Shown here in pieces: positions 1 through 24,000 of a DNA stretch of 64,000 nucleotides. The stretch is from Amoebophrya sp. A120 (taxonomy: Eukaryota; Protista; Dinoflagellata). The stretch lies in the NCBI GenBank assembly GCA_905178155.1, contig CAJINV010000006.1, positions 1,613,876 to 1,677,875 on the forward strand. The letters run 5' to 3'. Numbering within the stretch: position 1 is the first letter of the stretch; every line of letters starts with the position of its first letter. A program made the position numbers and the translations under genes. Under the pieces are notes generated by a model. The model was given only the letters and a program-made list of their open reading frames with translations, did not search any database and was not told the origin of the DNA.

Positions 1-3000
1 GGTGGCCACCTGCTTTTCTATGGATTGCAAAAATGTCTGGGTCTGGAAGGGTGCCAGACTTGTCATGCAGATTTTCTATGGCCCATGAGGTCTGGTATGT
101 AGGACATAGCATGACAGATTCTGTGAGAGTTCTATCAGGCCTATCCTGCATGAGAAACTGCGTCTCGATTAGGTCAAAAGTGGACAGCTTTTGGTAATCA
201 TGCAACACAGATTTTTGCATGATTCAGCTTTAGCATGACATGTTGCTTTGTTCCAGACCCAGACATTTTTACATATTGAAACTTTCCGTCCCCTACCCGT
301 TGAGCATGGAAAAAGAAGCCACGAATCACGACTTCTGCCACAATATGCATTCGGAAATACGTCTGGGTCTGGAAGAGTCGGGGCTTGTCATGCACATTTT
401 GCATGGCTCGGGAAGTCTCTGATGCTGGTGCTAGCATCACAGATTTTTTGATGAGAGGTTCTTGATGCTAATTACGCATGACAAATGCCCTCTCCGCGTG
501 CCAAGAACTGGACTCCTTTTGCTGCAGCTCATGCAGCACAGATATTTTTAGGATCCGCAGACAGCATTACAAGTTCGACTCGTCCAGATCCAGACATATT
601 CGCAGTTGATACACAAATTTTTCAACAAACTTGTGGACGTGTGCGGCGGCCCGTGGACACTGAAAGACGGCTATGGAAGCGTCAGGATCGAAATCGACAA
701 AGTTGAAATAGTTTGTGATGCATAAAGTGCAACAAAGAAATTGCCTCTATTGCAGAGGACGCAAGGGATGCAGATTGTAAGCCTGTAAATGAGGGGTGCT
801 ACAGATTGAGCTGCCAAAGTAGCATGACAAAAGGCGTCCTCCTTACCCAAACAGCATTACAAACTGGATTTCAGTTCTACCCAAATTTGTCATTCGCCAC
901 TTGAAAACTAGGCGCCAACTGGTATCCGTTTCATGCATCACAAATTATTTCAACTTTCACGATTTCGGTCCTGACGCTTTCATAACGGCACGCACGAGTT
1001 CATGCGCGCTCGCCCGGGGTTTGCCGCGACGCCGGGAAAGAACATTTGTGCGGATCCTGACGCGCCGGTGCCGCCACCCACAACGAGCACGACAGCGGCG
1101 CCCCCGCCCCCTCTGTAGGGAATGCAAAAGCATCGTACAACTTCTAGTATAGATCGCATGACAAATTTTTTCCCCAGCTGCATGAGGGATCATGGAATTC
1201 GTCGTGCGCATTTGCAGCTTTGTGGAAGAGATTTGTATTGCATGACTGCAATTAGTACCAGTTGTGCGCTAGTGCTTTTGCATTGGATACCCTGCCTCCA
1301 CCGCCATCTTCGACGTCCTCAACCACCTGGCCGCCTGCACCGTACTATTCCACTATCAAATGTAAAAATGTCTGGGTCTGGAAGATTCTGAGACTTGTCA
1401 TGCATGTTTTGCATGACCCAGGATGTCTGTAATGCACGACCTAGCATCACAGATTTTTAGAGGGCTTCCTGATGGCTACTCCGCATGACAAACGCCCTTC
1501 CCGCGTAGCAAAAATTGCACTCCCTTTGCTGCTCATGCAATACAGATTTTTTTAGAGACCAAAGTTAGCATCACAAGTTCCAATCCTTCCAGACCCAGAC
1601 ATTTTTACATTTGATATCCACGATATCGCAACAAAAACGTGTTTTACTGTTATAGGATTTTGGAACTTCAAGTTTTGCATTTGCATCACAAAAGATAATT
1701 TGGTCTGCATAGACAACAAGGTGGAAAATTGAAATTTCCCATGCGAGTGTCGGTCTCTTACGGATGAAAAACTCGCCGAAGAAAAGTCCAATCTCTTGCT
1801 CTTGCATGTGTACTAGCAGCGCGACCGCTTGTTCTTTCCCTGTTGCGTCCTGCTCCTTTTTGGCATGATCACAAGTCATTTACAGTGAAGCAGTTCTTTC
1901 TTGTGATAAACGACCCGGCACATGCAGTATGCCGACCTATCAAATGTAAAAATGTCTGGGTCTGGAAGAATGCAACTTGTGACGCTGAATTTGGATTCCA
2001 AAAAAATCTGTATTGCATGAGCAGCAAAGGGAATGCAATTTTTGCTACGCGGAGAGGGAATTTGTCATGCGGAATAGGCATCGCGAAGCCCTGAAAAAAG
2101 CTGTGATGCTAGGGCATGCATCACAGACATCATGGCCAATGCAAAGCATGCATGACAAGTCTCAGAATCTTCCAGACCCAGACATTTTTACATTTGATAC
2201 GACCCTGATATCTACAACTTCATGACCCTGTCTATGGCGTTCTCAAACGTTCCATTTCGAACTGTTACATGGATGTGCAATGCAAGAACCACATACAAGA
2301 ATCAAAAGGTTGCTGCTTTCGCATCACAGATTTGCTGGTACAGATTTTCATGCTGTTTAGACCTTCGGAAATTTGTCATGCGCAGCCGCTTGGTCGTGTG
2401 GTTGCTTTTTATGGCGATTTTGCATGACAAATCATGTAACAGTTGAGAATGTAACATTTGAGAATGCCACACTGTCCCCAATCGGCCCGCCCCCGACCAC
2501 GACGCCGCCACCGGGTGAGCCGCCCGTCCCGCCGCCGCCGGCTTCCATATGAGAGTGCACAACCCCCGCTCCGTCTGCTCAGTTGAAAGGCGTGAGCAGC
2601 ATCACAGAGGACAGCAGAAATGTGGCACCTGCATGACAAATGCAAATCGAGGTCGGGGCTTTAGTACGGTTTGGAGTCGTCCTGGCGAAATTTGTGTTGC
2701 AAAGTAGTGCTCGAAGGCGGGATGTGGAGTTCTGTGGTTTTGCATGACAAATGAGGGAGGGGAGACGGATGATTGTGCACTTTCATATTCCACCTGCGAA
2801 TACTACATGTGGAACGACTGGTCTGACTGCACCCGGCACTGTCGGGATGCCTCTGGCGACACGGGCACGCGCACGCGGACGCTATCATATGTAAAAATGT
2901 CTGGGTCTGGAAACTTGTGATGCTGGGTGGCGTCTCATGATGAGGCCACAAATGCTGGCTCAGCATGACAAGTTTCTGAGCTTCTAGGTGTTGCCTATTC

Positions 3001-6000
3001 TGCATGTTGACAAACTGCGTTCCTGCATCACAGAAAAATGGAGCTCTTGGGTAACGCGCGTGACAGATTTAAGAGTCATGCCAGACAAGCATGACAAACA
3101 TGCATTCTTCCAGACCCAGAGGACATTTTTGCATTTGATAGACGCGAAGCATGGTCGAAAGCGCAGTATCAACCACCGCGTGCCACGGCAAGCCCAACCC
3201 CGACTCGCAACAAGCGGCCTGCTATCAAATGTAAAAATGTCTGGGTCTGGAAGATTCTGAGACTTGTCATGCATGTTTTGCCTGGGCCATGATGTCTGTG
3301 ATGCATGCCCTAGCATCACAGATGTTTTGAGGGCCTCGCGATGCCTATTCCGCATGACAAATGCCCTCTCCGCGTAGCAAAAATTGCACTCCCTTTGCTG
3401 CTCATGCAATACAGTTTTTTTTGGAATCCAAATCCAGCATCACAAGTTCCAACCCTTCCAGACCCAGACATTTTTACAATCCATACCTGCCCCCGCCGCG
3501 GCATGCCGAAGTGCTGCACGTGGGGGGATATCCTGTGCAAAAGTATCGTACTAACTCGTACTAATTGCGTTTATGCATTACAAACCTTTTTATCAAGGCA
3601 AGCCAAGTCTGCATGATATGCAAATTCAATTTGTAAAAATGCTTACGGAATTTGTAATGCAATTATTCATACTAGTTCTAGTACGATATTATAACTTTTG
3701 CAATGCATAGGGGAGTGGGAACCGTGGGGCGAGTGCAGCTGCGTGGGCACGACGGGACTGCACACAAGAGCCCGCCCGTTAACAAACGTCGCCCACCCCG
3801 TATCACAAGAAAAAAGTGTTACAGTTACACATTTGTTGGAGTTTCTGCATCACAAAGTTGCTCGACATGGCAAAGAAAACCTGTGATGCGCAGACTACAA
3901 GGGAAAACAGTAATGAAATGAGGCTGGTAAGCATTTCCTGCATGACATAGGTTGTCTGTCTTGCTTGTCGTCCATGAGAGTGTGTAACTGTAACACTTTT
4001 TTCTCAGGATGCCCCGCCGTTTGCGAGTTTTTCGTACAAGAGGAGGCATGTGAAGACGAGGATCAGGAGAGATTAAAATAGGAAATGCAAAAAATATTTA
4101 TCTGGGACACCTCCGTCGACTGGGACCAATATTAAACTGACATTTTGTTTCACGCACTGTGTGCATGTGCAAGATGAACAGAAAGTATGACAAAAAATTA
4201 TGCGGATGCCACTCCCGCTTCTCCACCATCGATTCTGTCTGCATGAGAACTACATCAAATGGCCTCGTCTTCTCGTGCTGGAGACGAGAATGATCGCGCG
4301 CCTACTTCTGCTGATTTTTATCCAGCACTGATTTTTTTTTTGTCATCCTACTTTCGAAAGATGACCCGAGGTGGACCCCGATAAATATCTTTCTATTTGC
4401 AATGCATAAGAAATGCGGAACGAGTACGACAACAAGCCCTCCCGCACCCCCGCCTCCCTCGCCAACAACGAGTCCGCCGGCAACCTCCTCAAGCTCAACA
4501 ACAAGTCCTTCCGCACCTCCCGCAAGCTCAACGGCAGCTCCGCCCGAACCCCCGCCACCCTCAACAGCAAGTACGCCGGCAACCTCCTCAAGCTCAACAA
4601 CAAGTCCTTCCGCACCTCCCGCAAGCTCAACGGCGCCTCCGCCCGAACCCCCGCCACCCTCAACAACAAGCCCCTCGTCCAGCAGTAGTACGACTACATC
4701 TTCAGCTTCACCCCCGACTATGCAAAGAGAATAAAAGTGTTACACTTACACATCGTGTTCGCAAAACATGCGAGACAGACGACCTCTGTCATGCTCAAAA
4801 TGCTTGCGAGTCTCGTTTTGTGTGTGTTTTGCCTTACGATCTCTGCATTACATACAAGTTTTTTCCGTCATGCGAGGCAAATTTGTGATGCTGAATTCAC
4901 TACAAATGTGTGACTGTATCAATCCACTTTTTTCCTTGGATACCGACGACCCCGCAGCCGCAACCTTCTACGCGGCCCCCACCACCGCCGCCAGAAGACT
5001 GCCAGCTTTCCGACTGGAGTGACTGGTATGAACTGCAAAAGTATCGTACTAGTATGAATCGCATGACAAATTAGCTTAGCACGACAAATGGAATTTGTCA
5101 TGCTGTTTTGCCTTGGGATGAAAATTTGTAATGCATGACTGCGATTACTACGAGTACGATACTTTTGCACAGGATAACTGGGGCTCGTGCTCCACGACGT
5201 GCAACCCGTATCAGATGCAAAAATGCGTGGGTCTGGAAGATTCTGAGACTTGTCATGCATGTTTTGCATGACCCAGGATGTCTGTAATGCGCGACCTAGC
5301 ATCACTGATTTTTACAGGGCTTCCTGATGCCTACTCTGCATGAGTAACGCCCTCCCCGCGTAGCACAAACTAGACTCCTCTTGCTGGTCATGCAATACAG
5401 ATTTTTTTGAAAACCAAAGTTAGCATCACAAGTTCCAACTCTTCCAGACCCAGACATTTTTGCATTTGATAACCCGAGAAGGGCATCAACATCTTCAAGC
5501 GAAGATAGCGGCAAGGGCGTGTGGTATCGGACCAGAACCATTTCAGAACCGGCCAAACACGGCGGGACGTGTATCCTGTGTAAAAACGTCCCCAGCACCT
5601 CAGAGTCAAGATGGGGAATCGGCTAGACAAATCCACAAGCTTTGGCTGTTTTGCATGACAAATTTGGACTCGTAGCGTAGTGCTGTTTGAGCTAGCTCAG
5701 CAGCATCACAGATCCAGTACATCATGCAGATTGGAGCATGACAAATGGCAAAACACGACTATAAAATGCTTCTCATGGGGCTCCGCATGAGAAACATTCT
5801 GAGCATGCAGCTTCGCATTACAACTCTGGGGTGGGGACGTTTTTAATTACGATAACGTGCAGAGAGCCGCTGCGGGAGAGCGAAGAGTGTACGGGTATTG
5901 CCCCATGCCGCCCAGGGAGTCCGCCCGGGGGGAAAAAAGACTGCATGTACGACTCGTGGAATGCGTGGTCGCCCTGTTCCCGCTCGTGCATGGACACAGA

Positions 6001-9000
6001 CGGCGACAAGGGCACGCAGACGCGGACACGGGTGGTGAAACAAGAAGCCGCGAACGGCGGGGAACTGTGCGCCGGCGAAGGGGAGAAGGAGACTCGGGAT
6101 TGTATCAGGTGTAAAAACGTCCCTGCCCCAGAGTTGTCACGCAAGTCTGCATGGTGAAAATAAATGTTTCATGTGGCGCTGGGTGCGGGTGTCCACTACA
6201 TGATGATGATGATGATGCGAAACCCCAACATGAGAAGCATTCTCTAGTAGTGTTTTGGGATTTGTGATGCTCGAAGCAGCATGATGCGCCAGATCTGTGC
6301 TGCTGCTGAAGATCTAGCTAAACAGGATCACACTGCGAGGCCAAACTTGTCTTGCGCAGCAACGAAAGCTGACTGATTTGTCTAGGAGCAGATTCCCCAT
6401 CTTGGCTTTGGGGTGGAGACGTTTATTTTGCACAGGATAAATTGTGCGGAAAACCTGCCGGACTGCGACGCGGACTGCGTGATGAGTCAGTGGCAGGCGT
6501 ACGTATCAAATGCAAAAATCCCTGGACGTCTGGGAGGATGGAACTTGTGATGCGTCCTGTGGGTCACACAAAAATCTGTGTTGCGTGATCACCCAAAGTT
6601 GTTCTTGCTTGTTTGACCAACCTGAGCGGGAGTTTCTCATGCAAAATAGGCATGATGGAGACTTCCACTTCGACTTCGCAGGATCTGTGATGCTAGGTCC
6701 TGCATTCCAGACCTCGCGAGGCATGGAAAATATGCATGACAAAAAATCTGCATTCTTCCAGACCCAAACATTTTTGCATTTGATAGTACGGCGACTGCAG
6801 CCAAACCTGCCGGCGAGTGGGGGCGCCGGCGGGAAGGCAGCAGTTTCGGCGGTCTGTGCTCACGCAGGCAAAGGGGCCAGGCGGGCAGTGTCCAGACGAA
6901 GACGACACGAGGAAAACCGAGGACTGCGCGAACGAACAAACCTGCCCGCCCATGCCGGATTGCGTCTGGACCGAGTGGCAAGCCGACTCGCGGGGGTGCA
7001 GTAAAAGCTGCGGCACCGGTATCGTGAGAAAAATGGTTACAGTGACAAACTCTCATGCAAGACAAGCAAGACAGGCAACCACTGTCATGCAGGAAGCGCG
7101 TCGTGCGAGCCTCATTCCATTCGTGTTTTATTCCCTTATAGTCTACTGCGCATTACAAGTTTTCTTCGCCATTACAAGAGCAGATTTGTGATGCTGAAAT
7201 TCCAACAAATGTGTAACTGTAACACTTTTTTCCACTTGGATAACCGGGGAACAGCGGTACAACCGGCGCATCATCATGGGGGATTGCGAGGGCGGATATC
7301 CTGAGTAAAAACGTCCCCACCTCCCCGGAGTTGTCATGCAAATGTGCAATGACAGGAACTTTTGTAATGCGCAGCTCCATGAATCCAATGGTGTTTTGGA
7401 AAAATTTGTGATGCTGTATTAACAAGATGTGAAAATGGCTTCGTCATGTAACCACTCCCTTGCCAACCAGCACTACACTGCAATGGGAAAGAACTTGTCA
7501 TGCACAGCTCCCAAAAGTTGGAGATTTGTGCTGCTAGATTCCCAAGAACTTGACTCTGGCGTCGTGGGGACGTTTTTGCTTGGGGTAGCGGACAAGAGCT
7601 TGCCAGCACCAAGGTGGAGAACTGCAAGGAGGATCCCTGCCCCTTGAGCTGCGAGGTGGAGCGGGATTGGCAGCCGATCGGAAATTGTTGGACTGGTAGC
7701 TCTTCCATTTGGGGCAACGAGGGCCCTTCGAATTACAATGCTGTTGACAAGTGTGAGGGCTGGGTTATGAACTATCGAAAGGTGATAGGAAGGTGCACAA
7801 CTCCCCCTCCACCACCTCATTTGTCACGCAAAATACCTAATGCTAATCCACCCTTATTTGCCTGTTGGCACTGTTTGATTGCATGACAAGTTCTGGTAGC
7901 CCAAATAGCACTACACTCCAGTGCAACTTTGTCACGCAAAGCCGGCACTCTTGCTGGTGCTTGTATTACCGTTCACGCTATACAACTGAGGGGGAGGGGG
8001 AGTTGTGCACTGTCATAGGTCACGCAAGCGGACCAGCACGCCAATTTGTACAGCGATGACGTGGTGCGGACCTGCGAAGAACTCGCGGAATCGGAACACG
8101 CCCGACTCTATGCAGTGCAAAAGTATCGTACTCGTCGTACTAATTGCGAACATGCATGACAAGTCTTCTCCTAAGGTAAAGCAGCATTATATATAAGGCC
8201 GAGGGAATTTGTATTTGTGATGCTATTTATACTAGGACGCTACTTTTGCAGGTCATAGACTCAAGCAGCCGCAGCAGCAGCGAGATGACCCGTGCCCCTA
8301 CGACGAGACAGAAAGGTGCATCCACTACATGCAGCTGCCCCTTCGGATTCAAAAAGTCGTAAAGTGCCGGGACCCGGCGTTGTGTCCGAAAAAAGACTGC
8401 GTGATGAACGCCTGGGGCCCCTGGGGCGATTGCTCCCACACTTGCGGGGAAGGGGAGAAGAAACGGACCAGGACGGTTAAATCGGAAGCAAAAAACGGAG
8501 GAACCCCCTGCGACGAAATGTCTTATCAAATGCAAAAATGTCTGGGTCTGGGAGAATGGATGTTTGGCATGCTTGTCTGGCATGACTCTTAAATCTGTCA
8601 TGCACGTTACCCAAGAGCCCCATTTTTCTGTGATGCAGAAACGCAGTTTGTCATGCAGAATAGGCAACACCTAGAAGCTGAGAAACTTGTCATGCTGAGC
8701 CAGCACTTGCGGCCTCATCATGAGACGCCACCCAGCATCACAAGTTTCCAGACCCAGACATTTTTACATTTGACAGGTCTAAAGAGCAAACCACGTCGTG
8801 CGAAAACGAACACCACTGTCCAGTTCACTGTGAATGTATGAACTGCAAAAGTATCGTACTCGTAGTATTGCATGCAATACAAATTAGCTCAGCATGACAA
8901 ATGGAATTTCTCATGCTGATTTAGCTTGACAAAGAAATTTGTTTTGCATGACTGCAATTACTACGAGTATGATGCTTTTGCACAGGATAGAATGGAACGA

Positions 9001-12000
9001 GTGGCAAAATTACGGTCAGTGCGACTGCCCACACGGAAAGCCGTACAAAAAAACCCGGACACGCACGAAAAAGATCACGGAGCAGTACGGTGGGCGTTGC
9101 CCTGGGAAGGAGTCTGAAGAAACAACATGTAGTGTCCGCGAGTGTCCCTCGAGAAACTGCGTCTGGCACGAGTGGGGCGAGTGGGGTGACTGCACGCAAG
9201 GCTCTAAGACCTGCCACGCGGACGACAGAAAAAAAACGCGGACACGGAGAAAGAAGCACGAGGCCCAGGGAAACGGGCGTTGCGAGACTGAAGACGGGAA
9301 GGAGACCGCTTCTTGCCCCACCACGGACCCCTGTCCGGTGGACTGCAGGTTTGAAGATGAAGAATGGCAGTGGACGGACTGCTCGGCCACCTGCGGGACC
9401 ACCGGGGTTCGAAAGAGGTACAAGCGGATTAGAACGCACGCGGCCCACGGCGGGACACCGTGTTCCGACTCCGGGAAAGTGGAGGGGAACAGAGTCTATG
9501 CTGCCGATCACAGTGTGGACATCCGGCACTACGAGTGCAACCGACACGAGTGTCCGCGCGACTGCCGGTTGTCGCAGTGGGTCGACGACGGCAGATGCAG
9601 CAAGACCTGTGGCGGGGGTGTGCAGAAGAAGACACGGGAAGTTGTGGAAACTTCGCAGGGGACAGGGGATACTTGCAGCGAGGTTGCGGAAAAGGAAAAC
9701 GAAGGGTCGTATCAAAGCGACAGAAATACACACTATGTGTCTGTGTACACGAAGCACGTTTCGTGCAACACGCAGGACTGTCCCACCGTCGACTGCGAGA
9801 TGGACGAGTGGCAGGGCGACAGAGACGACTGCTCCGGCTCCTGTGGCGGGGGGAACTACTTTACGCAAACGCGAGGCGTGAAATCCCACCCGAAAAACGG
9901 CGGGGCGTCGTGCTCCGCCCACCGGAGCCGGCAGGTGGAGTGCAACAAACAGCCATGTCCCGTGGACTGTGAGCTGAAGGTATCACAAGAAAAAAGTGTT
10001 TAGAGTTCTTACACGTTTGTTGTAGCTTCAACAAGACAAATTTTCTCTGCATGAGACGCGGGAAAACTTGCAGTGCGCAGACCATAAGCGAAATAAACAC
10101 GTATGAAATGAAGCTCGGAACAATCATTTCTGGCATGACCGAGATCGTCTGTCATGCTGGGCTTGCTACACAATGTGTAACTGTTGCAACTCTTTTTTCT
10201 CGTCATAGCGGGACTGGACGGACTGGGGCCAATGTTCAAAATATGAGAGTGCACAACTACTCCCTCTCCCCCTCATTTGCATAGCATGAGCAGCAATAGA
10301 AATACCAACACACTTGGAGCCTGTGCATGACAAGTTCTTCACGGGCCGAAAATTGTAGGGCAGCTGCGTCCAAAATTTGTCATGCAAGCAGTGCCACTAG
10401 GACCACAAGGCACCAAATCAATTGGGGACTTTGCATCATGATCACAAATGAGCGGGACGAGGGGGAGTACTAGTAGTTGTGCACTGTCATACAAAAACGT
10501 GCACGCCCCACGGGCACGCCCCGGGCACGCGGACGCGACACCGAGGGATTCGCACGGACCCCGCGCACGGCGGAAAGCTGTGTGATACACGGAAGGAGAC
10601 GGAAGAATGCAACACGCACGACTGCCCGGAATGCGGGTCCAGCTGCACGTATTACTCCTGGACCAGCTGGAGCCCGCCCTGCCCTTCGTGCAAGCAGTCC
10701 GCATCGGAGTCCCACCAACAGCACCGAACTCGGCAAGTGAGAACCAAACCGTGTAATAACAATGGAGATGATATGGAAGCGTCAGGTTTGAAATCGACAA
10801 AGTTGAAATAACTTGTAATGTATAAAATCGATACCAGTTGGAAGCCCAATTTCCAAGCGGTGCATGACAAATTTCGGCGCCGCCCAAATCCAGTTTGTCT
10901 TGCTGTTTAGGGACAGAAGGCGCGTTTTGTCATGCTACATTAGCAGCTCTACCGCAGACCCCAAACAGGCTGACAGTCGGCCTCACTTGCCGCCCCTGCA
11001 AGAGAGGCACTTCATGCCTTGCAATTTATGCATGAGAAATTATTTCAACTTTGACGATTTCAATCCTGACGCTTCCATAGATGAGTCCTGTATCAACAAG
11101 CACGAACATAGGGATTGTTCCATCAGCGTGTGTATCAACTGTAAAAATGTCTGGGTCTGGAAGAATGCAACTTGTGATGCTATTTTTGGAATCTAAAAAA
11201 ATCTGTATTGCATGAGCAACAAGAGGCGTCCAGTTTTTGCTCCGCGGAGAGGGGATTTCTCATGCGGGATAGGCATCAAGAAGCCCGCAAAAAATTTGTG
11301 ATGCTGGTGTATACATCACAGAGGACATCAGGAGTCATGCAAAATGTGCATGACAAACCTGGCAATCTTCCAGACCCAGCCACTTTTACATTTGATAGTG
11401 TGCCGTAGGGATTGCGAGCTCAAACCCTGGAGCGGTTGGGGCCCCTGCAGTGCGGACTGCAGAGCGGAAGGAAAATCGGCCCCTATGAAATGCAAATGTC
11501 CCTGGATCATGACGAACTTGTGATGCGCATTCCACAACACAGACAAATCTCTCATGCACAGGAAGCAAAAGATGTCCATTTTCTGTCACCAAAGTCGGGG
11601 ATTTGTCATGTGGAATAAGCAAGAATGCGGAAGCTACTTCTCGAAATCTGTGATGCTAGGGCTTCCATGACATACAGCATTCGGTGTCATGCAAGAACAG
11701 CATGGCAAAAATCTGCACGACTCTACTTCCAGACCCAGACATATTTGCATTCGATAGCCCCAGAACAGACCCGCACTAAAGGGATCAAGCACCATTCGTT
11801 GGGCAGCGGGAAACACTGCCCGAGCGAAAGCAGCGAGGAACGGAAGGAGACCCGGCCTTGCAACGACCACGCTTGTCCTGTCGACTGTGTGCTGTCTTCG
11901 TGGGTAAAGGACGACGTCTGCAGTAAGACGTGCGGCATGGGGTCCCAGAAATACAAACGAAGCGTGCAGACGCACACGCGCGGCGACGGATTGACTTGCG

Positions 12001-15000
12001 CAGACCGATACGACCACGACGGGCGACTGCACAAACAGGAATCCTGCCATGAGCGAAATTGCCCGGGCGACTGCGAGCTCAGCGAGTGGCAATGGGTGGG
12101 GGAATGCAAGCGAAAGTCCAATCAAGACCCACCGCACAAAGTCCCAGGCAGCACAAATCGCTATTGCAAGAAGGAGGGAGAAGAATACTTCAAAGAAAAA
12201 AGGCGACACGTCACGAGGGAGCCTTCGGCCGGCGGCGTATGAATTGCAAAACTATCGTACTAGTATAAATCGCATGACAAATCTCCTCAGCATGAAAAAT
12301 AAAATTTGTAATGCGGATTTCACTTGAGAAAGAAATTTGTAATGCATAAACGCGATTAGTACGAGTACGATACTTTTGCACGGGATACGGCGCGGCCTGT
12401 CCCGATTCCGAGCCCTGTGACTCCATATGCAAGATGAAAAAAACTGTGTAAGTGTAACTCTGTGATGCAGAAAATGCAAAACTGTTACACTTGTCATGCT
12501 TGATCTGCGTCATAGGCTACTTTCATACGTGTTTTCACTGATACTAGCTGCGCATGACAGGTTTTCCCGGTAATGCAGCAGAGCGAATTTGTCATGCTGC
12601 TCTTCCTACAAAGTCACACTTGCGCAGTTTTTTTCCTGGATACTCCACGAACGAGAACTATTGTGACGACAAAAAACTGATTCGAGATTACTCTGTTTGT
12701 GATTACATAGACCATTGCCCGGTCAACTGCTATGGCGTTCTCTACTGTTTTTACATTCTCAACTGTTACACGAATTTGCAATGCAAGTAGGGCAAAAGTG
12801 AAAGGACGAAGACTGCGCCTTTTGCATTACAGATTTGGGCCGGATTATAGTGCTATTTAGTCCTTCGCAAGAAATCTGTCATGCGGAGCAGCTTGATCGT
12901 GAGGGATGATGATGGTGCTTCTGCATGGCAAATTCATGTAACAGTTGAGAGTGTAACGCTTGAGAACCCCATATCTGCGAGGCGGAGGAGTGGACTGATT
13001 GGTCCCCAGCTTGTCCGTATCAAGTGCAAAAATGTGTGGGTCTGGAAGAATTCATGTTTGTCATGCTTGTCTGGCATGACTCTTAAATCTGTCATGCACG
13101 TTACCCAAGAGCTCCGTTTTTCTGTGATGCAGAAGCGCAGTTTGTCATGCAGAATAGGCAACACCTAGGAGCTCAGAAACTTGTCATGCTGAGCCAGCAT
13201 TTGTAGCCTCATCATGAGACGCCACCCAGCATCACAAGTTTCCAGACCCAGACATTTTTACATTTGATTGTCCGGAGCAGTGTCCGAACCCCTCGAGAGA
13301 AATATCCTGTGTAAAAGTCTCGCACTTGTAGTAATTGCAGTCATGCGTTACAAATTTTTCACTCAAGGTAAATCCGCATTACAAATTTCATTTATCATTT
13401 CTCATTCTGAGGGAGCAACTTGTCATGCTTTTTTTATACGAGTGCGATACCTTATTTGCAATTTGATAAGAAAATCCGGACACCGACCAGCTGCCAAAGC
13501 AAACCAGGACGCGCCGGCTCAAGCCCGCGAGGCACGGCGGCGAGTGTATGGGAGTGTCAGGATTGAAATCGACAAAGTTGAAATAATTTGCAATGCGTAA
13601 AACGGATACCAGTTGGAAGCCCAGTTTCTAAGTGGCGCATGACAAATTTGGAAAGAGCCGAAATCCAGTTTTTCATGCTGTTTGGCTAAGGAAGACGCCT
13701 TTTGTGATGCTACTTTAGCAGCTGTATTTCTACCCCTCAACAGGCTTACAATCTGCCTCCCTTGCCTACTCTGCAAGACAGGCACTCTGTGTGTTGCGTT
13801 TTATGCATGAGAAATTATTTCAACTTTGTCGATTTCAAACGTGACACTTCCATAGAGTGCGCACAGGAAGTAAAAGAGACGCGGGACTGCGAGATTTGCG
13901 TGGTAGACTGCGACATGAACGAGTGGGGCTCGTTATCAAATGCAAAAATGTCTGGGTCTGTAAACTTGTAATGCTAAAAGTGAATGATAGACGCGCCGCA
14001 ATACGCAGCTATGCATGACAAATTTTGTGGCTGCCATGTCTTACGTATTCCGCATGGCAAACTGCCTTTTCGCATGACAGTTAAGAGGGCTCTTTCGTGC
14101 CTATGCAACACAGATTCCCGAGTCATGCCAGACAAGCATGACAAACTTGCATTCTTCCAGACCCAGACATTTTTACATTTCATACTCGTGGTCGGACACT
14201 TGTGCCCAGTGCTACGAAGCGGACGGTGAAAAGCCGCAGCGGAAAAGAACGCGGACAGTGAAGCAGCACAACAACAGCCACGGTAGGCAGTGCCCGGATC
14301 AGGAAGAGACCCAGCCCTGCCCGGAACCTCGAAAATGCAAAATCGACTGCGTGATGGGTCCGTGGGGCGATTGGGAAGATTGCGAGGCCAACTGCGTGAC
14401 CGAAAATGGGGAATTTCCCCAACGTATCAACTGTAAAAATGTCTGGGTCTGGAAGATTTCCAGGTTTGGCATGCGTATTTCGCATGGGCTATGATGCCTG
14501 TAATGCATGACCTAGCATGACAGATTTTTTGCGAGTATCTTGATGCCTATCCCGCATGACAAATGCCCTCTCCGCGGAGCAGAAACTGGACGCCTCTTGC
14601 TGCTCATGCAATACAGATTTTTTTAGATTCCAAAAATAGCATCACAAGTTGCATTCTTCCAGACCCAGACATTTTTGCAATCCATACAACGGAAGCGCAC
14701 CCGGGAAATCGAAACCCCACAAGCGCACGGTGGGCAACACTGTCCGCGTGACAGCAAGACCAACATTATTACAATGAAATATAGTGCCCCCTCGTGGTCC
14801 CCATATTAAAACGGAAATCTGTGGTGCAGATTTGTGGCCACAAATCAGCTTCGTGATGCTAGAAGGCAAAAGAAGATGTAGCGGACTGTAGTGTTGGCTA
14901 GCGTGGGAAAGCCTAGCATCTCCAGCATGACAGGGGGCAACTGGAAGTGGAAAACAGCATGACAACATATGCCTGCAATTCAGGCCGCAGCTGCTGTGTG

Positions 15001-18000
15001 TGTTGGCCTTATAGCAATACAAATCGACTTGCGTACTCGAATACAGCATCACAAATTTTTTCCATTTCGATATGGCGGGGAGGGGGATTTTTTCCTTTTG
15101 ATCCGCGCGGTTCTCACAGAGGAAACGAAGGATTGCCAGTCAGACCTGCCCAACTGCGATATCGACTGCAAAATGAACGAGTGGCATATGGCGTTCTCAA
15201 ACCGGTTACCTTCTCAACTGTTACATGAATTTGTCATGCAGAACTACCATCATCATCGACGCAATCAAGCTGCTTCGAATGACAAATTTTCGAATGGCTA
15301 AATAGCACCTGAATCTGTGCGAGTTTTGTAATGCTAAATGTGCAGCCTCCCCCCTTTGACTTTTGCTATTCTTGCATCACAAATTCATGTGGTTTCGTTT
15401 GGTTTAGCATCACAAATTCATGTAACAGCTGAGAATGTAACACTTGAGAACGCCATATGGCAGGATGAAGTTGAAGACGGCGACAAATGCCGTTCCCAAG
15501 ACAATCCAAAGAAGGTCGCTACCTGCAAAGAACTATTTCACGAAAAAACTGTCTCATTGTGATGATTTTGCAATACCTGCATCACAAGTTTGTTACACAT
15601 GTGACGCGGAAAACTTGCCATGCGCGCATTTCCCATAGGGGAAAGCACGGTTAAAGATTCAATGTTCTATGCAGGTGTAGCAAGACAAACACTTTGGCGC
15701 TTCGTTCTGTGCATCACAAGTTCACAGTGAAGCAGTTTTTTCCTGCGATAGAAACCGGACAAAAAGTACTACAAAGTGCAGAAGCGCACCGTGAATCGGG
15801 AACCGAGTGGGAGTGGCAAGCAGTGTCCTCCAGTGGATAGTGTGTGCAATTTGAACAATCGGGCCGCAGCAATAACCCGCATATCAAGTGCAAATATGTC
15901 TGGGTCTGGAAGTATACAAACTTGTCATGCAGGATTGCCATGCCCCAGCCCCTAGAGGTCTGCAATGCAGGATCTAGCATGACAGATTCTACAAGGTCTC
16001 CGTCATACCTGTTCTGCATGAGAAACTCCCTCTCATGGTGGTCAGAAAAGGGCAACTTTTGGTGATCTTCACGCAAGACAGATTTTTGTGTGATCCACAG
16101 GATGCATCACAGGTTCCATCTTTCCAGACCCAGACACATTTGCATTTGATAGCGCAGCAAGTGCAGCAACTACCGGATTTACCACGACTACGCCTACTGC
16201 GACACACATTTGTATGGATGTGTCAGGATCGAAATCGACAAAATCGAAAAACTTGTCATGTATAAAATGTTTAACACTGGAGGGCTGTGTTGGGGAGCAG
16301 GCAAATGAGACCGATTGTCAGAGTGTTTAGGGGTATGCAATGTGCTGCCGGACCCGGAGTAGCATGATAGGAGCAGTCCTCTTTGCCCAAACAGCATGAC
16401 AGATTGGATCTGGGTCCTCCCGAAATTTGTCATGTGCCACTTACAAACTGAAGCTCCGCCTGGTATCGTATCGATTTTATGCATTACAAATTTTTTGATT
16501 TGTGCAATTTCGATTCTGACACTTCCATGATTTACCACAATGCAAGCGAGACTGCAAGTTAGAAGACGAGTGGCAGCTTGGGAAGTGTAACTGCGTGACA
16601 CAGGATATCGTTTGTAAAAACGTCCCCACCTCCTCCCCAGAGTTGTATATGCAAATCTGCATGCTGAAAATGTTTCTCATGCGGAGACCCACCATTTTGA
16701 GAAGCAGTCTCTATTGCTGTTTTGCGATTTGTGATACTCGCATTCGCATGGTATGCGTATGCCAGATCTGTGATTTTGCTTCACTAGCTAAACACGATTT
16801 TTACATTGCAAGCCCAGATTTGTCATGCGCAACAACGACCAAAGCTGGTTGATTTATGTAGCAGATTGTACATCTTGACTCTGGGGTGGGGACGACGCTT
16901 TTGCTCAGCATAGAGGAAAGAGAATGGTGGAAGGAAATTCTCCAACATGCCAAGTACGACTATGACATTGCACAACTCCCCCCCTCCCTCCTCCTCAATC
17001 ATTTGTCATGCAAAATACCCAATCCACCCTTCGTGTCTTGGCACTGTTTGCATGACAAGTTCTTGTAGCCCAAATAGCACTACAATCCAGTGGAAATTTG
17101 TCATGCAAAACCGGCACTCTTGCTGATGATGATGATTGCCGTTCATGCTATACGAATGAGGGGGAACAAGGGGAGTTGTGCCCTGTCATAACGGCGGAAA
17201 AGAGTGCAGCACGTATGGGGATAAAGTTCGGAAAAAAGATTCGGAAAATGAGTGGCATCACGACAGGGTCTACAAAACGAACACTACTTGTTCGCAGGCG
17301 GCGCTTGACCAAGATTGCCCGAAGCAGGACTGCGAGGTTTCTGAGTGGAGAGAAGTGAAAACGTGCAAGGACGCCGCGGACTGCATCGAGGAGCACGAGC
17401 CTTCACACAGCAGAAAAAAGGTGATGAAGAAGTTCGAGCGAACGATCCTAAAACAGCCGAGGAACAACGGAACGGAATGCCCGGAGCTGGAAAAATGGGA
17501 AGAGTGCGCGGTGCAGCAGCAGGGCCAGGGGACGGGCGATCTGCCGCTCTATCAAAGTGAAAAAAGCCCCCACCCCATATCGAAAACGGAAGATGCGCGA
17601 ATTTGTGATGCTGTATTTGAGTACACAAATCAACTTGTATTGCTAGAAGGCCAGGAGACGAAGCTGCGGCCTAAATTGCAGGTAATCTGTCATGCTGTTT
17701 CCCACTTCCAGTTGCCTCCTGTCATCCTAAAACTGCAAGGCTTTCCCACGCTAGACAGCACTACAGTCCGCATCTTTTGCCTTCTAGCATCACAAAGCTG
17801 ATTTGTGACCACAAATCTGCATCACAGATTTCCGTTTTGATATGGGGAGGGGGCATTTTTCACTGTAATACGCTCTGCGCCGTCGACTGTCAGGTAGAGG
17901 AGACTTGGCGCGAAACGGACTGCTCGACAACTTGCGGCCCGGGAATATGGAACTGTCAGAATCGAAATTGACAAAGTCGAAAAATTTGTGATGCACAAAA

Positions 18001-21000
18001 TCGATGCCAGTTAGAGCCTCAGTTTCCAAGTGGCGCATGAGAAATTTCGGGAGCACCCACATCCAGTCTCTCATGCTGTTTGGGCAAAGAAGACTGCTCC
18101 TGTCATGCTACTCGGGCAGCACATTGCTTAGCCCTAAACAGGCTTGAAATCGGTCTCATTTGCCTGTTCCCCAATACAGGCCTTGCGTGCCCTACATTTT
18201 ATGCATTACAAATTTTTCGATTTTGACGATTTCGATCCTGACACTCCCATAGGGAACAAAGGACAAGTACAAGAAAATCCTGCAGCAGCCGCGGCACGAC
18301 GGGGCGAAAAATTGCACTGAAATAGAGCCCAGGGGGGAGCTGAGGCCTCAGATAAATCGGGAAAGGCTGTATCACAAGGACGGCCCGTTTCACTGTGATA
18401 ACCCAGATGACTGCGGGCGGGACTGCAAAGTTGAGGAGGGAGAGTGGAAGCAGACTCCGTGCTCCAAATCCTGCGATACAGGGCGCTTTCGTAAGTACAA
18501 GCGCATTCTGAAACGCGAATCCGGCGTGGACGCAAAGCCCTGCAGCGACTCCGGGAAGGTAATTACTGACCGGGTGTACAAGTTAAGAGCGAAGGCCAGA
18601 AACGACGACGACGACGTCGTGGAAGAATTCTCGTGCAACGAACGCGTGTGTGCGGTTGACTGTGTTTTCACACCCTGGAAGGACGACGACCGGGTGTGGG
18701 GTGGAGGGGCCGGTAAAACCACCACCCCTATCAAGAGGAAAAATCCCCCCTAAGCCATATCGAAACGAAGTTTCTGATGCTGGATTTCCGTGCACAAATC
18801 AGATTTGTCTTGCAGTAGAGGACTGCAGGCATACGTCAAGCCTCTCGACTCGAGAGGTTTTGACGTAGGCGCCTAGCATGACACACGTGCATGCTCTAAG
18901 CCCAACAGCATCTATCACAAACCGCCTGCGAAATGCAGGGGGCTCTCTGGACTTGCCTTCTTGCAAGACAGACAAGATTTGAGGTCACAAACGTGCGTCG
19001 CGAATTTTCAGAAGGATGCGTTTTCAATATGGGGAGGGGGGATTTTTCTTTACGATAACCCCTTTCCAATCCTTCGAGACGCGGCCAATCGATCTCGCCG
19101 AGTTTACGCAACAGTACCCCGATATCAACTGTAAAAATGTCTGGGTCTGGAAGAATACAACTTGTCATGCTAAATCTGAAGCATGCAAAAATCTGTGTTG
19201 CATGATTATCAAAAGTCGTCCAGTTTTGACCAGGTCGGAAGGGAGTTTCTCATGCAGAATAGGCATGAGAGAGATCGCACAGAATGTGTCATGCTAGGTC
19301 CTGCATTCGAGACCTCATGGGTGATGGAAAAGCTGCATGACAAATCGCGCATTCTTCCAGACGCAGACACTTTTGCATTTGATACCCGATCAAAGTAGTT
19401 TTAACTTTGTCGGCAGCGAGGTTTTTGGGAAATTAGACTTCGACAAAAACGAGAAACTTTCGGAAGAGGAATACCAGCGGTTCCTCGACAATCCCGGCTG
19501 CAGCGAGTTTTGCGGGCCCGATGGGAAGAAGAAGCAGATTCGCAGCGTGAAGACGCAGCCGAAGGGCAATGGGGACACGTGTGCGGAAGTAGCGCAGAAG
19601 GACCCAGAGGACGGGGAGGATTTTGAGAACTTAGAGGGTGACGACCTGTTGCGGAGAGAGGCATCCTGCAATACCTCCGACACTGTAGTTCTATGCATTG
19701 CAAAAGTATCGTACTCGTATAAATGCATTACAAATTTCCTCAGCCTGAGAAATAAAATTTGTAATGCGGATTTAGCTTAAAAACGAGACTTGTAATGCAT
19801 GTTTGCAATTACTACGATGCTTTTGCACAGGATAAGATCTCTGTCCCACCGATTGCACGGTCAGCGAGTGGACGATATGGCGTAGTTCTCAAACATTACA
19901 TTCTCGAACAATCACATGGACTTGTGATGCAAAATTACGATAAGCAGGAGCAGCTGCCCCACACGAGCAAGCTACTTCGCATGACAAATTACCGAGGGGC
20001 TATTAAACAGCATCGTAAAAATTATCCGTGCGAAGTTTGTGATGCGAGAGCTGCAAGGTTGCCCCTTTCCCTGTTGCTGTTCTTGCATTTTTTGTACGCA
20101 TTCACGCAAGAACAGCCGAGAATGTAGTGTGTGAGAACGCCATAGACCAACGACGGATGCACGAAACAGTGCGATGGGATTCACGCGAGGATGGAAAATG
20201 CGTTCCGGAAGAAAAAACGGAGAATAACGCACGTAACGGGAAAACCGCTTCATGGTGGGAAGCCGTGCAGCGCTTTTGAATTGACCAAAATCAGTAGCGA
20301 AGTCTGCAACGAGAAATGCGCGGTAGACTGCGTCCTGCACCAGTGGGAGGATTGGGGCGACTGCTCCCAGTCCTGCATCCCAAGAGACGAAGCAAATCCG
20401 GCGACTGGCACGCAAACCCGAAGTCGCAAGGTGAAAGTCGCAATGCAAAACGACGGACAACCGTGTGGCGATCTGACGGAAACCAGGGCTTGCAACCAGG
20501 TGGAATGTCCGGAACCGCGTCCCACGTGCGAACATGCGCGCGAATGGCGCACGGAACACGAGTGTCCGCCTTGCCTCCAGCATAAAGATGACGACGCGTA
20601 TGAGATACAAGTCAAAGACGTAATCACGAAACCTGCGGAGAGGAGTCCGGCAGCCTCTACGACTGAATCGCCGTCGACGACGCCCGCCGTTTCTTCGGAG
20701 AAACAAGGAGCGAATGAAAGTCCCAACCTACCAGCTCCTATCAAATGTAAAAATCTCTGGGTCTGGGACATCATAGCAACTTGTCATGCTAAATCTGAAT
20801 CATGCAAAAATCTGTGTTGCGTGATTACCAAAAGCTGTCCACTTTTGACCTAATCGAGAGGCAGTTTCCCATGCAGGATAGGCATGACGGAACTCTCACA
20901 GAATCTGTCATGCTATGGCCTTCATACCAGACCTCAAGGGTCATGGACAACCTGCGTGACAAGTCTGGCAACATTCCAGACCCAGACATATTTGCATTTG

Positions 21001-24000
21001 ATAGCTCCCCCGGACGGTGAACAAACCCCAACCCCGAAGCCACCGGCAAGTAGTACCACTACCAGCAGTACTACACCGACGATTTCCAGAACTTTTTACA
21101 GGGAGGGGCAAACCGTATGGGGAGTGGAAGACAACCGCCCCGACGCGGTGAAAAAACTTATGGTTCGAGTACTTATACCCCCGGCCGACCCGGACCACCT
21201 GTTCTTGAAGAGCGGGCACGTAGAATGTTGGAATGCGTGCGATGGAAGCAGTCTGAACAAAAAACGGGGGTTCTGCAGCAAGTGCCAAGTGCTCCACACA
21301 AAAGAGTTGGGTGATGGATTAGTTCAACGGAGCCCGCTGCCGGACGACTACACCGGAGCGTGCTGCCGGTACAACAAAAACACCCAGCGAGGCACGCCAC
21401 ACTCCTGGGACCACCACGACCCCCGCGAGTGCCGCATCCTTGGCGCGCTGAAGGGCAAGGGGCCGCAAAATTTCCTCTCGAAATTCTATTGGGACTGGGT
21501 GGACAATACCAACCGGGAGATCAACAAAGCGGGTTACATATGGATTGCAAATATCCCTGGACGTCTGGATGATTCTAAACTTGTGATGCTGTCTCTGGAT
21601 TCTAAAAAAATCTGTATTGCATGACCAGCAAGAGGACTCCAGCTTGTGCTACGCGGACGAGAGGGCATGTCTCATGCGGTAGAAGCATCACAAAGTCCTC
21701 TAAAAATCTGGGATGCTAGGGCATGCATCACAGACATCATGGGCCATTCAAAATAAGCATGACAAACTTGGCAATCTTCCAGACCCAGACATATTTGCAC
21801 TCGATATTACACGGACTACGACAATACAGAGGGGTACCACAGTTGCGTCGCGGTTCCCAAGTGGGTGCGAGACGGCACCTGCCTGAGCCCGGAAGGCGAC
21901 TGCAGTGAGGAAGGTTTGTGCGACAAGTGCAAAACGGACATTCTGACTGCGGAAAATAAACAAGGTGACCAACAGTACGCAAACCGCAAAGGCGCGTGCT
22001 GCAAAAAAGGGAAAAATTACGCCAGTGGCCATGCGTGCAACAACGTGAAAAAGAGTCCCGCTGGTGATGGTCAAGCAAAGTACCGGTTGGCGGACCTGAA
22101 GTTCAAAGACGATATCAGTGCTGAGGACGAGTTCTATGTTGCTGAGTGTGTGCTGGTCGACGACACTAGCACCGCGCCGGCGGGAACAGGTGATACTCCC
22201 ACAGAGGCCGCCGGCTTCCTCGAGGTCGAGCTTGCCGCGACAAAAAGAGAGTGCATATCGTAAGTGAAAATCCCCCCTCCCCATATCGAAAAGAAAATTT
22301 GTGATGCTGATTTGTGAGCACAAAAAAGCGTTGTCTTGCGTACAATGCAAACGGCACCCATGTGGTGCATTGTACAGCGAATCTGTCATGCGTTTTCGCC
22401 TATGTCAGACTTGTTTCTCATGCTCAGCTGCTGCTAGCCGGATGAATGCCCAGCAAATGGGCTCAGCATATAAAAATGCCGACATCAAGCTCCTGCTGCA
22501 TTGCAGCAGGAGCTTGACCTTGATGTCGGCATTTTTATATGCTGAGCCCATTTGCTGGGCATTCATCCGGCTAGCAACACAAATCCAGCAACACTGCGTC
22601 TGAGCAATACAAAGCTCATCTGTCGTGTACACAAATCCAGCAACACAAATTGTCTTTTGAATATGGGGCTGTTGGGGCTTTTTTCACTTTGATCGTGCCT
22701 CCCGCAGCAAAGAAAAATCCCGTGCGAGAATTTGGAGCTGTGTCCGAAGAACTGCACGCTCAAGCCGTGGACCGAAATATCATGAGAAAAAAGTGTATAC
22801 AATTCTGTCTTACACATTTGTAATGGACTTTCTCCATCACGAATTTTCTTCTGTGTGTGGCAGACAAACCTTGTAATGCAAAGATCATAAGGAAAAATCA
22901 AAATACGTGGGAAAGGAGGGGCGCAAGCATTTCCTGCATGACAAAGGTTGTCTGTCTTGCGGCACCTGCAACACAAACTGTAACACTTTTTTCTTGCGAT
23001 ACGAATGGGCAGATAGCCACTGCTCCGAGGATTGCGGGGGCGGTGAGCAGACCCGAACGAGGGCCATCCTGGAACCGGCAAAGTACCACGGAACGTGCTA
23101 TGAGGCCGACAGCAAGGAGCGGAAGGAAACGCGAGAGTGCAATACCGAAGACTGTCAGAACTGTGAACTGGGAGAGTGGGAAAAAAGCGGCGACTGCACC
23201 AAAACCTGTGTATCCAAGTGAAAAAGAAAAAAGCCCTCTCCACATGTTGAAAAGGAAATTTCTGTTGCTGGATTTGTGTACACAAGTCAGCTCTGTCTTG
23301 CAGTGAGGTACTACTGCAGGCAAAGCCCAGCCTGCGTAGGGGTGTTTTGGTTTAGGTGCTTAGCATAAAAGAGGCCTGCCGTGTAGGGGCAACAGCATTA
23401 CAAACCGCCTCCCTAAAGCGGCGCACTCTTTGGATTTGCCGTCTTGCAAGAGAGACAGGATTTGTGGCCACAAAGCAGCATCACAAATTTTTAGATGCGT
23501 GCCCTTTCAGTATGGGGAGGGGGGATTTTTCCTCACAATACTGCGGCGGCGGTATTCAGGAGTGGAGAAGGGATCAAGTGTATCGCAAGAAAAAAATGTT
23601 GCACTGTGAACTTGTGACGCAGAAAACGAAGCACCAAAGTGTTTGTCTTGCAGCTACACCTGCAAGACATTGGATTTTCAAGCGTGTTTTCCCTTTGAAA
23701 GCGCGCATGGCAAATTTGCCGTGTCATGTATAACAAACTTGTGATGCAGATCTTGCAAAATCAGAAAATCACCACAGTGAAACAGTTTTTTCCTGTGATA
23801 AAGTGAAAAAGCCGGGCCCGGGCGGACTACCCTGTTCCGAGGAGTATGACAACGACCACCTATGGATCTGTCAGGATTGAAATCGTCAAAGTTGAAATGA
23901 TTTGTCATGCATATAAATGCAAGGCATGAAGTGCCTGTCTTGACGGGATGGCAGAGCCGATCCACAACGAACGAACGGGATGGCAAGTGAGGCAGATTGT

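What the first reader, a model, noticed from the sequence alone, without database searches (positions are those of the whole stretch)
1390..1580. A short motif TTGT(C/G/A)ATGC and its reverse complement fill the interior of nearly every family
Seen: families with different TIRs and interiors carry several copies of TTGTCATGC, TTGTGATGC or TTGTAATGC and the complements GCATGACAA, GCATCACAA or GCATTACAA. They often form facing pairs 7-8 nt apart, such as TTGTCATGC-ATGTTTT-GCATGAC and CTGTAATGC-ACGACCTA-GCATCACAG in 1354-1616. The motif is largely missing from exons and nested inserts, and it persists in copies whose repeats have decayed. Inference: it is a common binding site, either for one master transposase (like subterminal repeats) or for an RNA-binding factor that marks sequence as intron, and it works in either orientation.
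Basis: partly seen in the sequence, partly recalled or inferred. Interest (0 to 1): 0.8.

Follow-up and report, generated by a model that had tools for sequence, protein, structure and literature searches.

The report
Helically spaced binding sites inside introners
Many otherwise unalike jumping introns in this protist-like gene carry the same 10-letter word in pairs about three DNA turns apart and in step with the element's ends, likely the grip of one shared protein that moves them, which would give a handle on how these odd introns spread.

Summary
The motif is real: 332 copies against 3.5 expected, none in exons. It fills 147 TAT…ATA elements with 5-bp target duplications that interrupt a giant thrombospondin-repeat gene and match published Amoebophrya A120 introners.

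The main arrangement is not facing pairs. Sites form same-orientation pairs 31–33 bp apart in 12 of 13 families whose interiors mostly do not align (15.5 vs 1.7 expected; held out 5.9 vs 1.2). The first inward site lies 35–37, 43–49 or 55–58 bp from the tip, with a period near 10.5 bp. The 109-bp smallest family is two ends plus one pair.

Facing sites do not covary. One family has all its sites on one strand yet inserts both ways, and ordinary GT-AG introns lack the motif. These argue against an RNA hairpin or a single-strand RNA signal.

The motif core changes about six times slower than spacers among spreading lineages but still decays after insertion.

Best reading: internal double-stranded-DNA binding sites for one transposition system, with ends like IS3EU/GingerRoot. 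No transposase was found, and a role in splicing is not excluded. I found no description of the motif in print.

The parts
1354..1616 (.). Family A1 introner, 263 bp, TAT...ATA ends, TIR about 30 bp
1349..1353 (+). Left copy of the 5-bp target-site duplication
   Evidence: 5 bp in 98 of 129 clean elements
1617..1621 (+). Right copy of the 5-bp target-site duplication
1395..1403 (+). First inward motif site, centre about 45 bp from the left tip; first member of a 32-bp direct pair
1411..1419 (-).
1427..1435 (+). Second member of the left direct pair, 32 bp after 1395
1444..1452 (-). Reverse site 17-18 bp from the preceding site; mismatched to it at the variable base
1483..1491 (-). Central reverse site
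1537..1545 (-). Inner member of the right direct pair (variant with T at position 7)
1568..1576 (-). First inward site from the right tip; 31 bp from 1537
19..63710 (.). 147 TAT...ATA elements in 13 families plus singletons, 40,138 bp, holding 330 of 332 strict motif copies
43390..43668 (.). Family G example: three direct pairs, all six sites on one strand
4315..59143 (+). Host reading frame of 6474 codons that opens when each element plus 5 nt is removed; thrombospondin type 1 repeats
59013..59730 (+). Control: unrelated TIR insert removable as a GT...AG intron; no strict motif, two weak matrix hits

Best explanation
The motif is likely an internal double-stranded-DNA binding site for one protein of the transposition system that is inferred to move all TAT...ATA introner families; it sits in same-orientation pairs 31-33 bp apart and in step with the element tip. 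SHOWN: the elements are non-coding TIR inserts with 5-bp duplications that interrupt an open frame; the motif is confined to them; its spacing and phase recur in families that do not align; it is most conserved on branches that left descendants. INFERRED: the transposase, or a partner DNA-binding protein, occupies two sites three helical turns apart on one face of the helix and bends or holds the short element so that its two TAT tips meet. Because the tips share little beyond TAT(C/G) and an A-run, the internal pairs would supply most of the specificity. This would let one enzyme move some 20 families with different TIRs. Splicing would depend mainly on the ends (TIR pairing, TAT/ATA), not on the motif.
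For: Pairs at 31-33 bp: 15.5 of 56.2 family-weighted pairs against a null mean of 1.67 (max 7 in 3000). 22 consensus pairs in 12 of 13 families. Held-out families and singletons: 5.9 vs 1.2, p=0.0004.

First inward site 35-37, 43-49 or 55-58 bp from the tip at 24 family ends: R=0.76 at period 10.5, 0 of 20,000 jitters reach it; still R=0.74 with clans collapsed. Outward sites are offset by about 4 bp (14 ends, p=0.04). Smallest family (109 bp) has two sites, 32 bp apart in 4 of 7 copies.

Strand-blind: 336 vs 317 sites. Family G: 9 copies give RNA with only one form, 9 with only the other, 1 mixed. No covariation in facing pairs: 52 of 108 vs 50.8. Eight stretches of canonical Rpb1 intron: 1 site in 2005 bp vs 0.67 expected; TAT elements at that locus: 50 in 2842 bp.

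467 copies: core 0.0067 internal and 0.032 terminal; spacer 0.039 and 0.073. The motif decays in place: 506 terminal core changes; private indels 0.32 per 100 in motifs vs 0.47 elsewhere. 31 of 147 window elements lack an intact pair and 2 have a single site, yet the frame is open once they are removed. All 40 family ends start TAT (TAT was also used to call them).
Against: No transposase, integrase or candidate binder was found: 273 of 459 locus ORFs scanned, no such Pfam hit, and no whole genome was held. The main paper found no transposase in A120 and argued against transposase-mediated mobilisation (PMC7789003 section 16).

Selection after insertion is not excluded. The TSD-age test gives a core/spacer ratio of 0.55 (95% 0.12-1.2). 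The private-versus-shared indel contrast seen in the window was not significant in the larger set (p=0.12). The only 4 clearly non-coding copies show a higher core/spacer ratio (0.81, 0.30-1.47) than 153 coding copies (0.48, 0.41-0.56); that leans towards a splicing role but n is tiny.

Family D mostly has alternating sites 47-49 bp apart and no consensus pair. A nested 111-bp TAT element has only one weak site. The period peak is broad (10-11), so B-DNA and A-form RNA are not separated. Families may share a remote ancestor, so they are not fully independent.
Confidence: 0.57

Rival explanations
1. The motif is a DNA-level mark used by the host, or by a domesticated transposon protein. A sequence-specific factor bound to the pairs would flag the element during transcription and recruit the unknown machinery that removes these non-canonical introns, possibly as well as mobilising them.
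For: Fits all DNA-type geometry. Present in all 147 window introners and absent from canonical introns. U1 snRNA was not detected in these genomes (PMC7789003 section 10). The terminal core rate is only 0.44 of the spacer rate, and the 4 non-coding copies show less protection. Redundancy of 3-8 sites per element would hide weak selection.
Against: The core and the pair spacing do decay in place. Introns with one site, no pair, or a 2-kb insert remain in an open frame. Phasing to the exact DNA tip is expected of a transpososome and is not needed for a flag.
Confidence: 0.22
2. The motif acts in RNA, either as a site for an RNA-binding protein or as stems that fold the interior into a structure needed for splicing.
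For: Motif bases are predicted paired more often than other interior bases in all 13 families (0.69-0.85 vs 0.49-0.67). Degenerate facing partners exist. 33 nt is three A-form turns.
Against: No covariation at the variable base (52 of 108 vs 50.8, p=0.39). Motif-to-motif pairing is 0.05 in family G and 0.11 in F3. Family G would need two different words to be read equally well. The dominant pairs are direct repeats, which cannot pair with each other.
Confidence: 0.12
3. The motif and its 32-bp period are passive relics of one ancestral element built from a 32-bp tandem unit, with no present function.
For: Pair spacers are slightly more alike than shuffled (0.349 vs 0.297) and lean to a reverse site in the middle. 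Some clans are clearly related.
Against: The core changes about six times slower than spacers on internal branches. Spacer sequence is scrambled while its length holds at 31-33 bp. Shared indels are rarer in motifs than elsewhere (0.037 vs 0.117 per 100).
Confidence: 0.06

Closest known systems
Amoebophrya A120 introner elements (Farhat et al. 2021, PMC7789003)
   Same: IR starts with TAT, then seven variable bases and an A-run; 5-bp direct repeats in their example; about 240 nt; non-canonical splice sites; many families (sections 10, 11, 16 and supplement legends).
   Different: The text I read describes only the ends. It gives no internal motif, spacing or phase, and leaves mobilisation and splicing unexplained. 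Figures could not be seen. I did not establish the source of this window.
IS3EU/GingerRoot DNA transposons (PMC10045372, PMC6839031, PMC12730594)
   Same: TA...TA termini, TIRs, GC-rich unspecific target (passages).
   Different: Their duplication is usually 6 bp; here it is 5 bp. No transposase was found here. 'Subterminal' occurs 0 times in the two papers searched for it.
A120 introner family 38 (Gozashti et al. 2025, PMC12130899)
   Same: [quoted passage not shown]
   Different: It is about 810 bp with 5 copies. Most A120 rows I read (21, part 16 of the table) are TIR DNA of unknown superfamily or unknown.
Subterminal or internal transposase-binding sites (P element, piggyBac/piggyBat; Ac/Ds, En/Spm and Harbinger recalled)
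   Same: Short sites inside the TIR at fixed spacing from the end. P elements have 10-bp internal sites 9 or 21 bp from the TIR. Arrays of sites aid end synapsis.
   Different: Here one motif is shared by about 20 families with different TIRs, fills the whole interior, follows a 31-33 bp pair rule, and can be fully polar (family G). The En/Spm and Harbinger comparisons are recalled; two searches for them returned nothing.

Membership tests
Amoebophrya A120-type introner | IR begins TAT + 7 variable nt + A-run | tested here: met
   Logo of 40 family ends: TAT in 40 of 40 (also used to call them), A in 31-36 of 40 at positions 11-15; families B, D, E and J lack a full A-run
Amoebophrya A120-type introner | Short direct repeat at the borders | tested here: met
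   5 bp, 98 of 129 perfect, mean identity 0.94 vs 0.27-0.35 for other lengths; end refinement used the 5-bp match
Amoebophrya A120-type introner | Removed from mRNA as an intron | tested here: inconclusive
   Frame test met (6474-aa ORF; 16 of 16 informative junctions). No RNA covered the window's exons. In L070, 6 of 6 listed element joints skip element + 5 nt, but the RNA is from a strain 2-5% different, so absence of the insert is not excluded
Amoebophrya A120-type introner | Host is Amoebophrya | not tested
   Inferred from element structure and lengths only; no taxonomic search was run
IS3EU/GingerRoot | TA...TA termini with TIRs | tested here: met
IS3EU/GingerRoot | 6-bp target-site duplication | tested here: not met
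   0 of 129 perfect at 6 bp, 98 of 129 at 5 bp
IS3EU/GingerRoot | Integrase-related DDE transposase of that clade | tested here: inconclusive
   No autonomous copy among 375 called locus elements; no transposase in 273 of 459 ORFs
Ginger1/Ginger2 | TGTNR termini | tested here: not met
   Ends are TAT; definition
Ginger1/Ginger2 | 4-5 bp duplication | tested here: met
   5 bp, as in TDD-4 and TDD-5
Subterminal transposase-binding repeat | Repeated short site at fixed distance and phase from the end | tested here: met
Subterminal transposase-binding repeat | Conserved among mobile lineages | tested here: met
   internal-branch rate 0.0067 vs 0.039
Subterminal transposase-binding repeat | Bound by the transposase and needed for transposition | not testable with these tools
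   Needs the protein, binding assays and a mobility assay
RNA hairpin or RNA-protein splicing signal | Covariation of paired bases, or strand preference in the transcript | tested here: not met
   52 of 108 vs 50.8; 336 vs 317 sites; family G 9 vs 10 orientations

The most novel reading that the evidence does not exclude
One transposon-derived DNA-binding protein reads the 32-bp motif pairs both to mobilise the introners and to mark them on chromatin for precise, GT-AG-independent removal from the transcript. That would be a DNA-encoded intron-recognition code replacing U1 in this lineage.
Probability: 0.17. Interest if true: 0.92.

Novelty: new variant of a known kind. Interest (0 to 1): 0.6.

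Why it matters
The A120-type introners number in the tens of thousands, were split into about 1,950 families, and have no known mobilising enzyme or splicing route (PMC7789003). A shared internal site with a fixed geometry suggests they are one system.

It supplies a defined bait for finding the protein: two 10-bp sites 32 bp apart. It also gives a signature for finding autonomous parents, and a 109-bp minimal element to mutate. That makes two open questions testable: what moves these elements, and whether the interior helps to splice them.

Tried and rejected
- No whole genome was held.
- No RNA holder was listed for the window. Raw RNA runs X6 and X7 gave no exon coverage over 7001-27000, and X6 and X8 gave none on L070, so intron retention could not be compared with motif content.
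- No pair of elements with shared flanks among 515, so no direct in-place divergence (same orientation only was tested).
- The 'no ORF' class (28 copies; core 0.024, spacer 0.071) first looked like a non-coding control. One search showed almost all copies have exon-like flanks, so I dropped it.
- Tertiles by spacer divergence are biased and were not used.
- Viral scan: 2 hits, both chance matches without the motif. Five of 144 metagenome loci had no motif; L037 is the same chance match.
- No transposase in 273 of 459 ORFs; 186 were not scanned.
- Six long TAT elements in the loci: best ORFs 85-238 aa stop to stop; the one read in full is a B-like element with a nested repeat insert.
- Earlier-findings look-ups were empty.
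- Recalled look-alikes (ApiAP2 TGCATGCA, RBFOX GCAUG, PUF UGUA, Drosophila FB 31-bp repeats) were considered but not tested. The G and A variants break the first two.
- Excision-like footprints inside elements were rejected as evidence for these elements, because their lengths (3 and 6) do not match a 5-bp duplication.

Full report
WHAT THE WINDOW IS. No genome was held. Reading the window and pairing end profiles gave 147 inserts covering 40,138 of 64,000 bp. Most are 140-340 bp and end TAT...ATA. Of 129 with clean ends, 98 have a perfect 5-bp duplication; other lengths are at background (the end refinement used this match). Removing each insert plus 5 nt opens one 6474-codon frame from 4315 to 59143, and 16 of 16 junctions with a unique plus-strand frame agree modulo 3. 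An exon matches thrombospondin type 1 domains. The structure matches the A120 introners of PMC7789003 (read: abstract, passages, sections 10, 11, 12, 16, supplement part 2 of 5 and a term search of it). I did not test the window's taxon.

THE OBSERVATION. TTGTVATGC occurs 332 times against 3.45 expected. 330 copies are in called elements and 2 in the truncated last element. A matrix trained with families weighted equally gives 18.9 sites per kb inside and 0.92 outside at 8 bits. The quoted pairs in 1354-1616 are there, but facing pairs are not the main arrangement.

THE GRAMMAR. 136 copies in 13 families were aligned. Same-orientation pairs 31-33 bp apart make up 15.5 of 56.2 family-weighted pairs; random placement gives 1.67, at most 7 in 3000 trials. 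Convergent pairs at 17-18 bp weigh 1.2. 22 consensus pairs fall in 12 of 13 families; family D alternates at 47-49 bp. With motifs masked, 7 of 78 family pairs exceed z=3 and only three do so clearly, so the families are not end-to-end relatives.

INDEPENDENT SEQUENCE. A metagenome scan with a TIR pattern returned 144 loci (593 kb non-redundant) with the same families at 70-97% identity. De novo calling found 375 elements, 33 not assigned to window families. In 13 units not used for training, 31-33 bp pairs were 5.9 of 39.0 against 1.2 expected (p=0.0004). The 109-bp family has two sites, 32 bp apart in 4 of 7 copies, 35 and 38 bp apart in two, and one site lost in one. Strict motifs number 1077 in element-like sequence (8.4 per kb) and 73 outside (0.16 per kb).

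PHASE TO THE TIP. I first noticed this by eye (note), then tested it on 20 families. The first inward-pointing site lies at 35-37, 43-49 or 55-58 bp at 24 ends (R=0.76 at 10.5 bp; 0 of 20,000 jitters reach it; 0.74 with clans collapsed). Six of the 7 inward ends from new families fit. Outward sites are shifted by about 4 bp (14 ends, p=0.04). The peak is broad, 10-11 bp.

RNA OR DNA. Sites split 336 to 317 between strands and every larger family inserts both ways. In family G all strong sites face one way: 9 transcripts would carry only one form, 9 only the other, and 1 both. Facing sites match at the variable base in 52 of 108 cases against 50.8 by shuffling (some pairs are counted from both strands). 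Predicted motif-to-motif pairing ranges from 0.05 to 0.69 across families. Canonical introns of an Rpb1 gene have 1 site in 2005 bp (0.67 expected), against 50 in 2842 bp of elements at that locus. RNA contigs from a related strain skip six elements of that gene by exactly element + 5 nt; 20 further joints were not shown, and absence in that strain is not excluded.

CONSERVATION. In the window the core changes at 0.039 against 0.092 for spacers on terminal branches, and 0.011 against 0.058 on internal ones (125 copies). With 467 copies the values are 0.032 vs 0.073 and 0.0067 vs 0.039. Using TSD mismatch as a marker of age in place, the core gains 0.021 vs 0.025 in the window and 0.012 vs 0.021 overall (ratio 0.55, 95% 0.12-1.2). 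Private indels hit motifs at 0.32 and other interior at 0.47 per 100; shared ones at 0.037 and 0.117, but the contrast is not significant (p=0.12). Only 4 of 326 locus copies are clearly non-coding, and they lean the other way (0.81 vs 0.48). So constraint is strongest among spreading lineages, and selection after insertion is neither shown nor excluded.

MECHANISM. Orientation-blind use, three-turn direct pairs and phase to the exact tip are what a protein bound to double-stranded DNA across sites and ends would need (inference). I put a transposition role at 0.57, a DNA-level splicing mark at 0.22, an RNA role at 0.12 and passive descent at 0.06. No protein was found: 273 of 459 ORFs gave no transposase family.

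KNOWN SYSTEMS. TA...TA ends are those of IS3EU/GingerRoot, whose duplication is usually 6 bp (passages of PMC10045372, PMC6839031, PMC12730594). Ginger ends are TGTNR (passages of PMC2836005). PMC12130899 lists A120 family 38 as Ginger with a 5-bp TSD and TA/TA termini (section 6, passages, supplement rows). Internal binding sites at fixed spacing are known from P elements and piggyBat (passages of PMC7776569, PMC11707139). I do not file the elements in any superfamily, since the 6-bp and TGT tests failed.

NOVELTY. Searches for the introners, their mechanism and the motif (listings only except as noted), a term search of the PMC7789003 supplement (0 hits for three motif words) and passages of two further papers found no description of an internal motif. 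Figures of those papers (including S19 and S25 of PMC7789003), files 13-14 of PMC12130899 and subscription papers could not be seen and may bear on this. The introners are known; the shared, helically phased internal site appears new as a variant of subterminal binding sites. Interest 0.6.

Noticed in passing
inside elements, window and loci: Private insertions peak at 3 nt (72) and 6 nt (41). Many are a tandem duplication with one base changed, and that base is the complement of the one it replaces in 39 of 44 (3 nt), 11 of 11 (4 nt) and 12 of 13 (6 nt), against about 54% at random. This resembles hairpin-type excision footprints (recalled) of other transposons, with an in-frame bias even in non-coding DNA.
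   Followed up: partly
loci L001-L144: Recognisable TAT elements sit almost only in GC-rich, exon-like flanks: 4 of 326 have AT-rich flanks with few open frames, while 931 of 5479 background windows are that AT-rich. This suggests exon targeting or faster loss elsewhere.
   Followed up: partly
window 59013-59730; relatives in L054 and L050: A different TIR element with an 8-bp flanking repeat is removable as a canonical GT-AG intron, leaving three extra codons. It lacks the strict motif.
   Followed up: partly
window about 54320-56320: A 2-kb nested insert with its own long inverted ends and two satellite arrays; one array (55720-56000) scores as degenerate copies of the motif.
   Followed up: no
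window 4315-63999 and upstream: One gene of more than 7,000 codons, rich in thrombospondin repeats and Pro/Thr tracts, likely an adhesin, with well over 100 introner insertions.
   Followed up: partly
window 50886-51405; L013 1813-2244; L070 12529-12768: TAT elements nested in other TAT elements or in a canonical intron, each with a 5-bp duplication. The 111-bp nested one is nearly a full palindrome with one weak site.
   Followed up: partly
window 22445-22563; inserts near 31700-31990, 36300-36620, 48150-48620: Motif-free nested inserts, one a perfect palindrome of about 119 bp.
   Followed up: no
L070 joints: The mRNA of a related strain keeps exactly one copy of the 5-bp duplication whatever its sequence, so the cut points would lie inside the duplication with no fixed dinucleotide.
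   Followed up: partly
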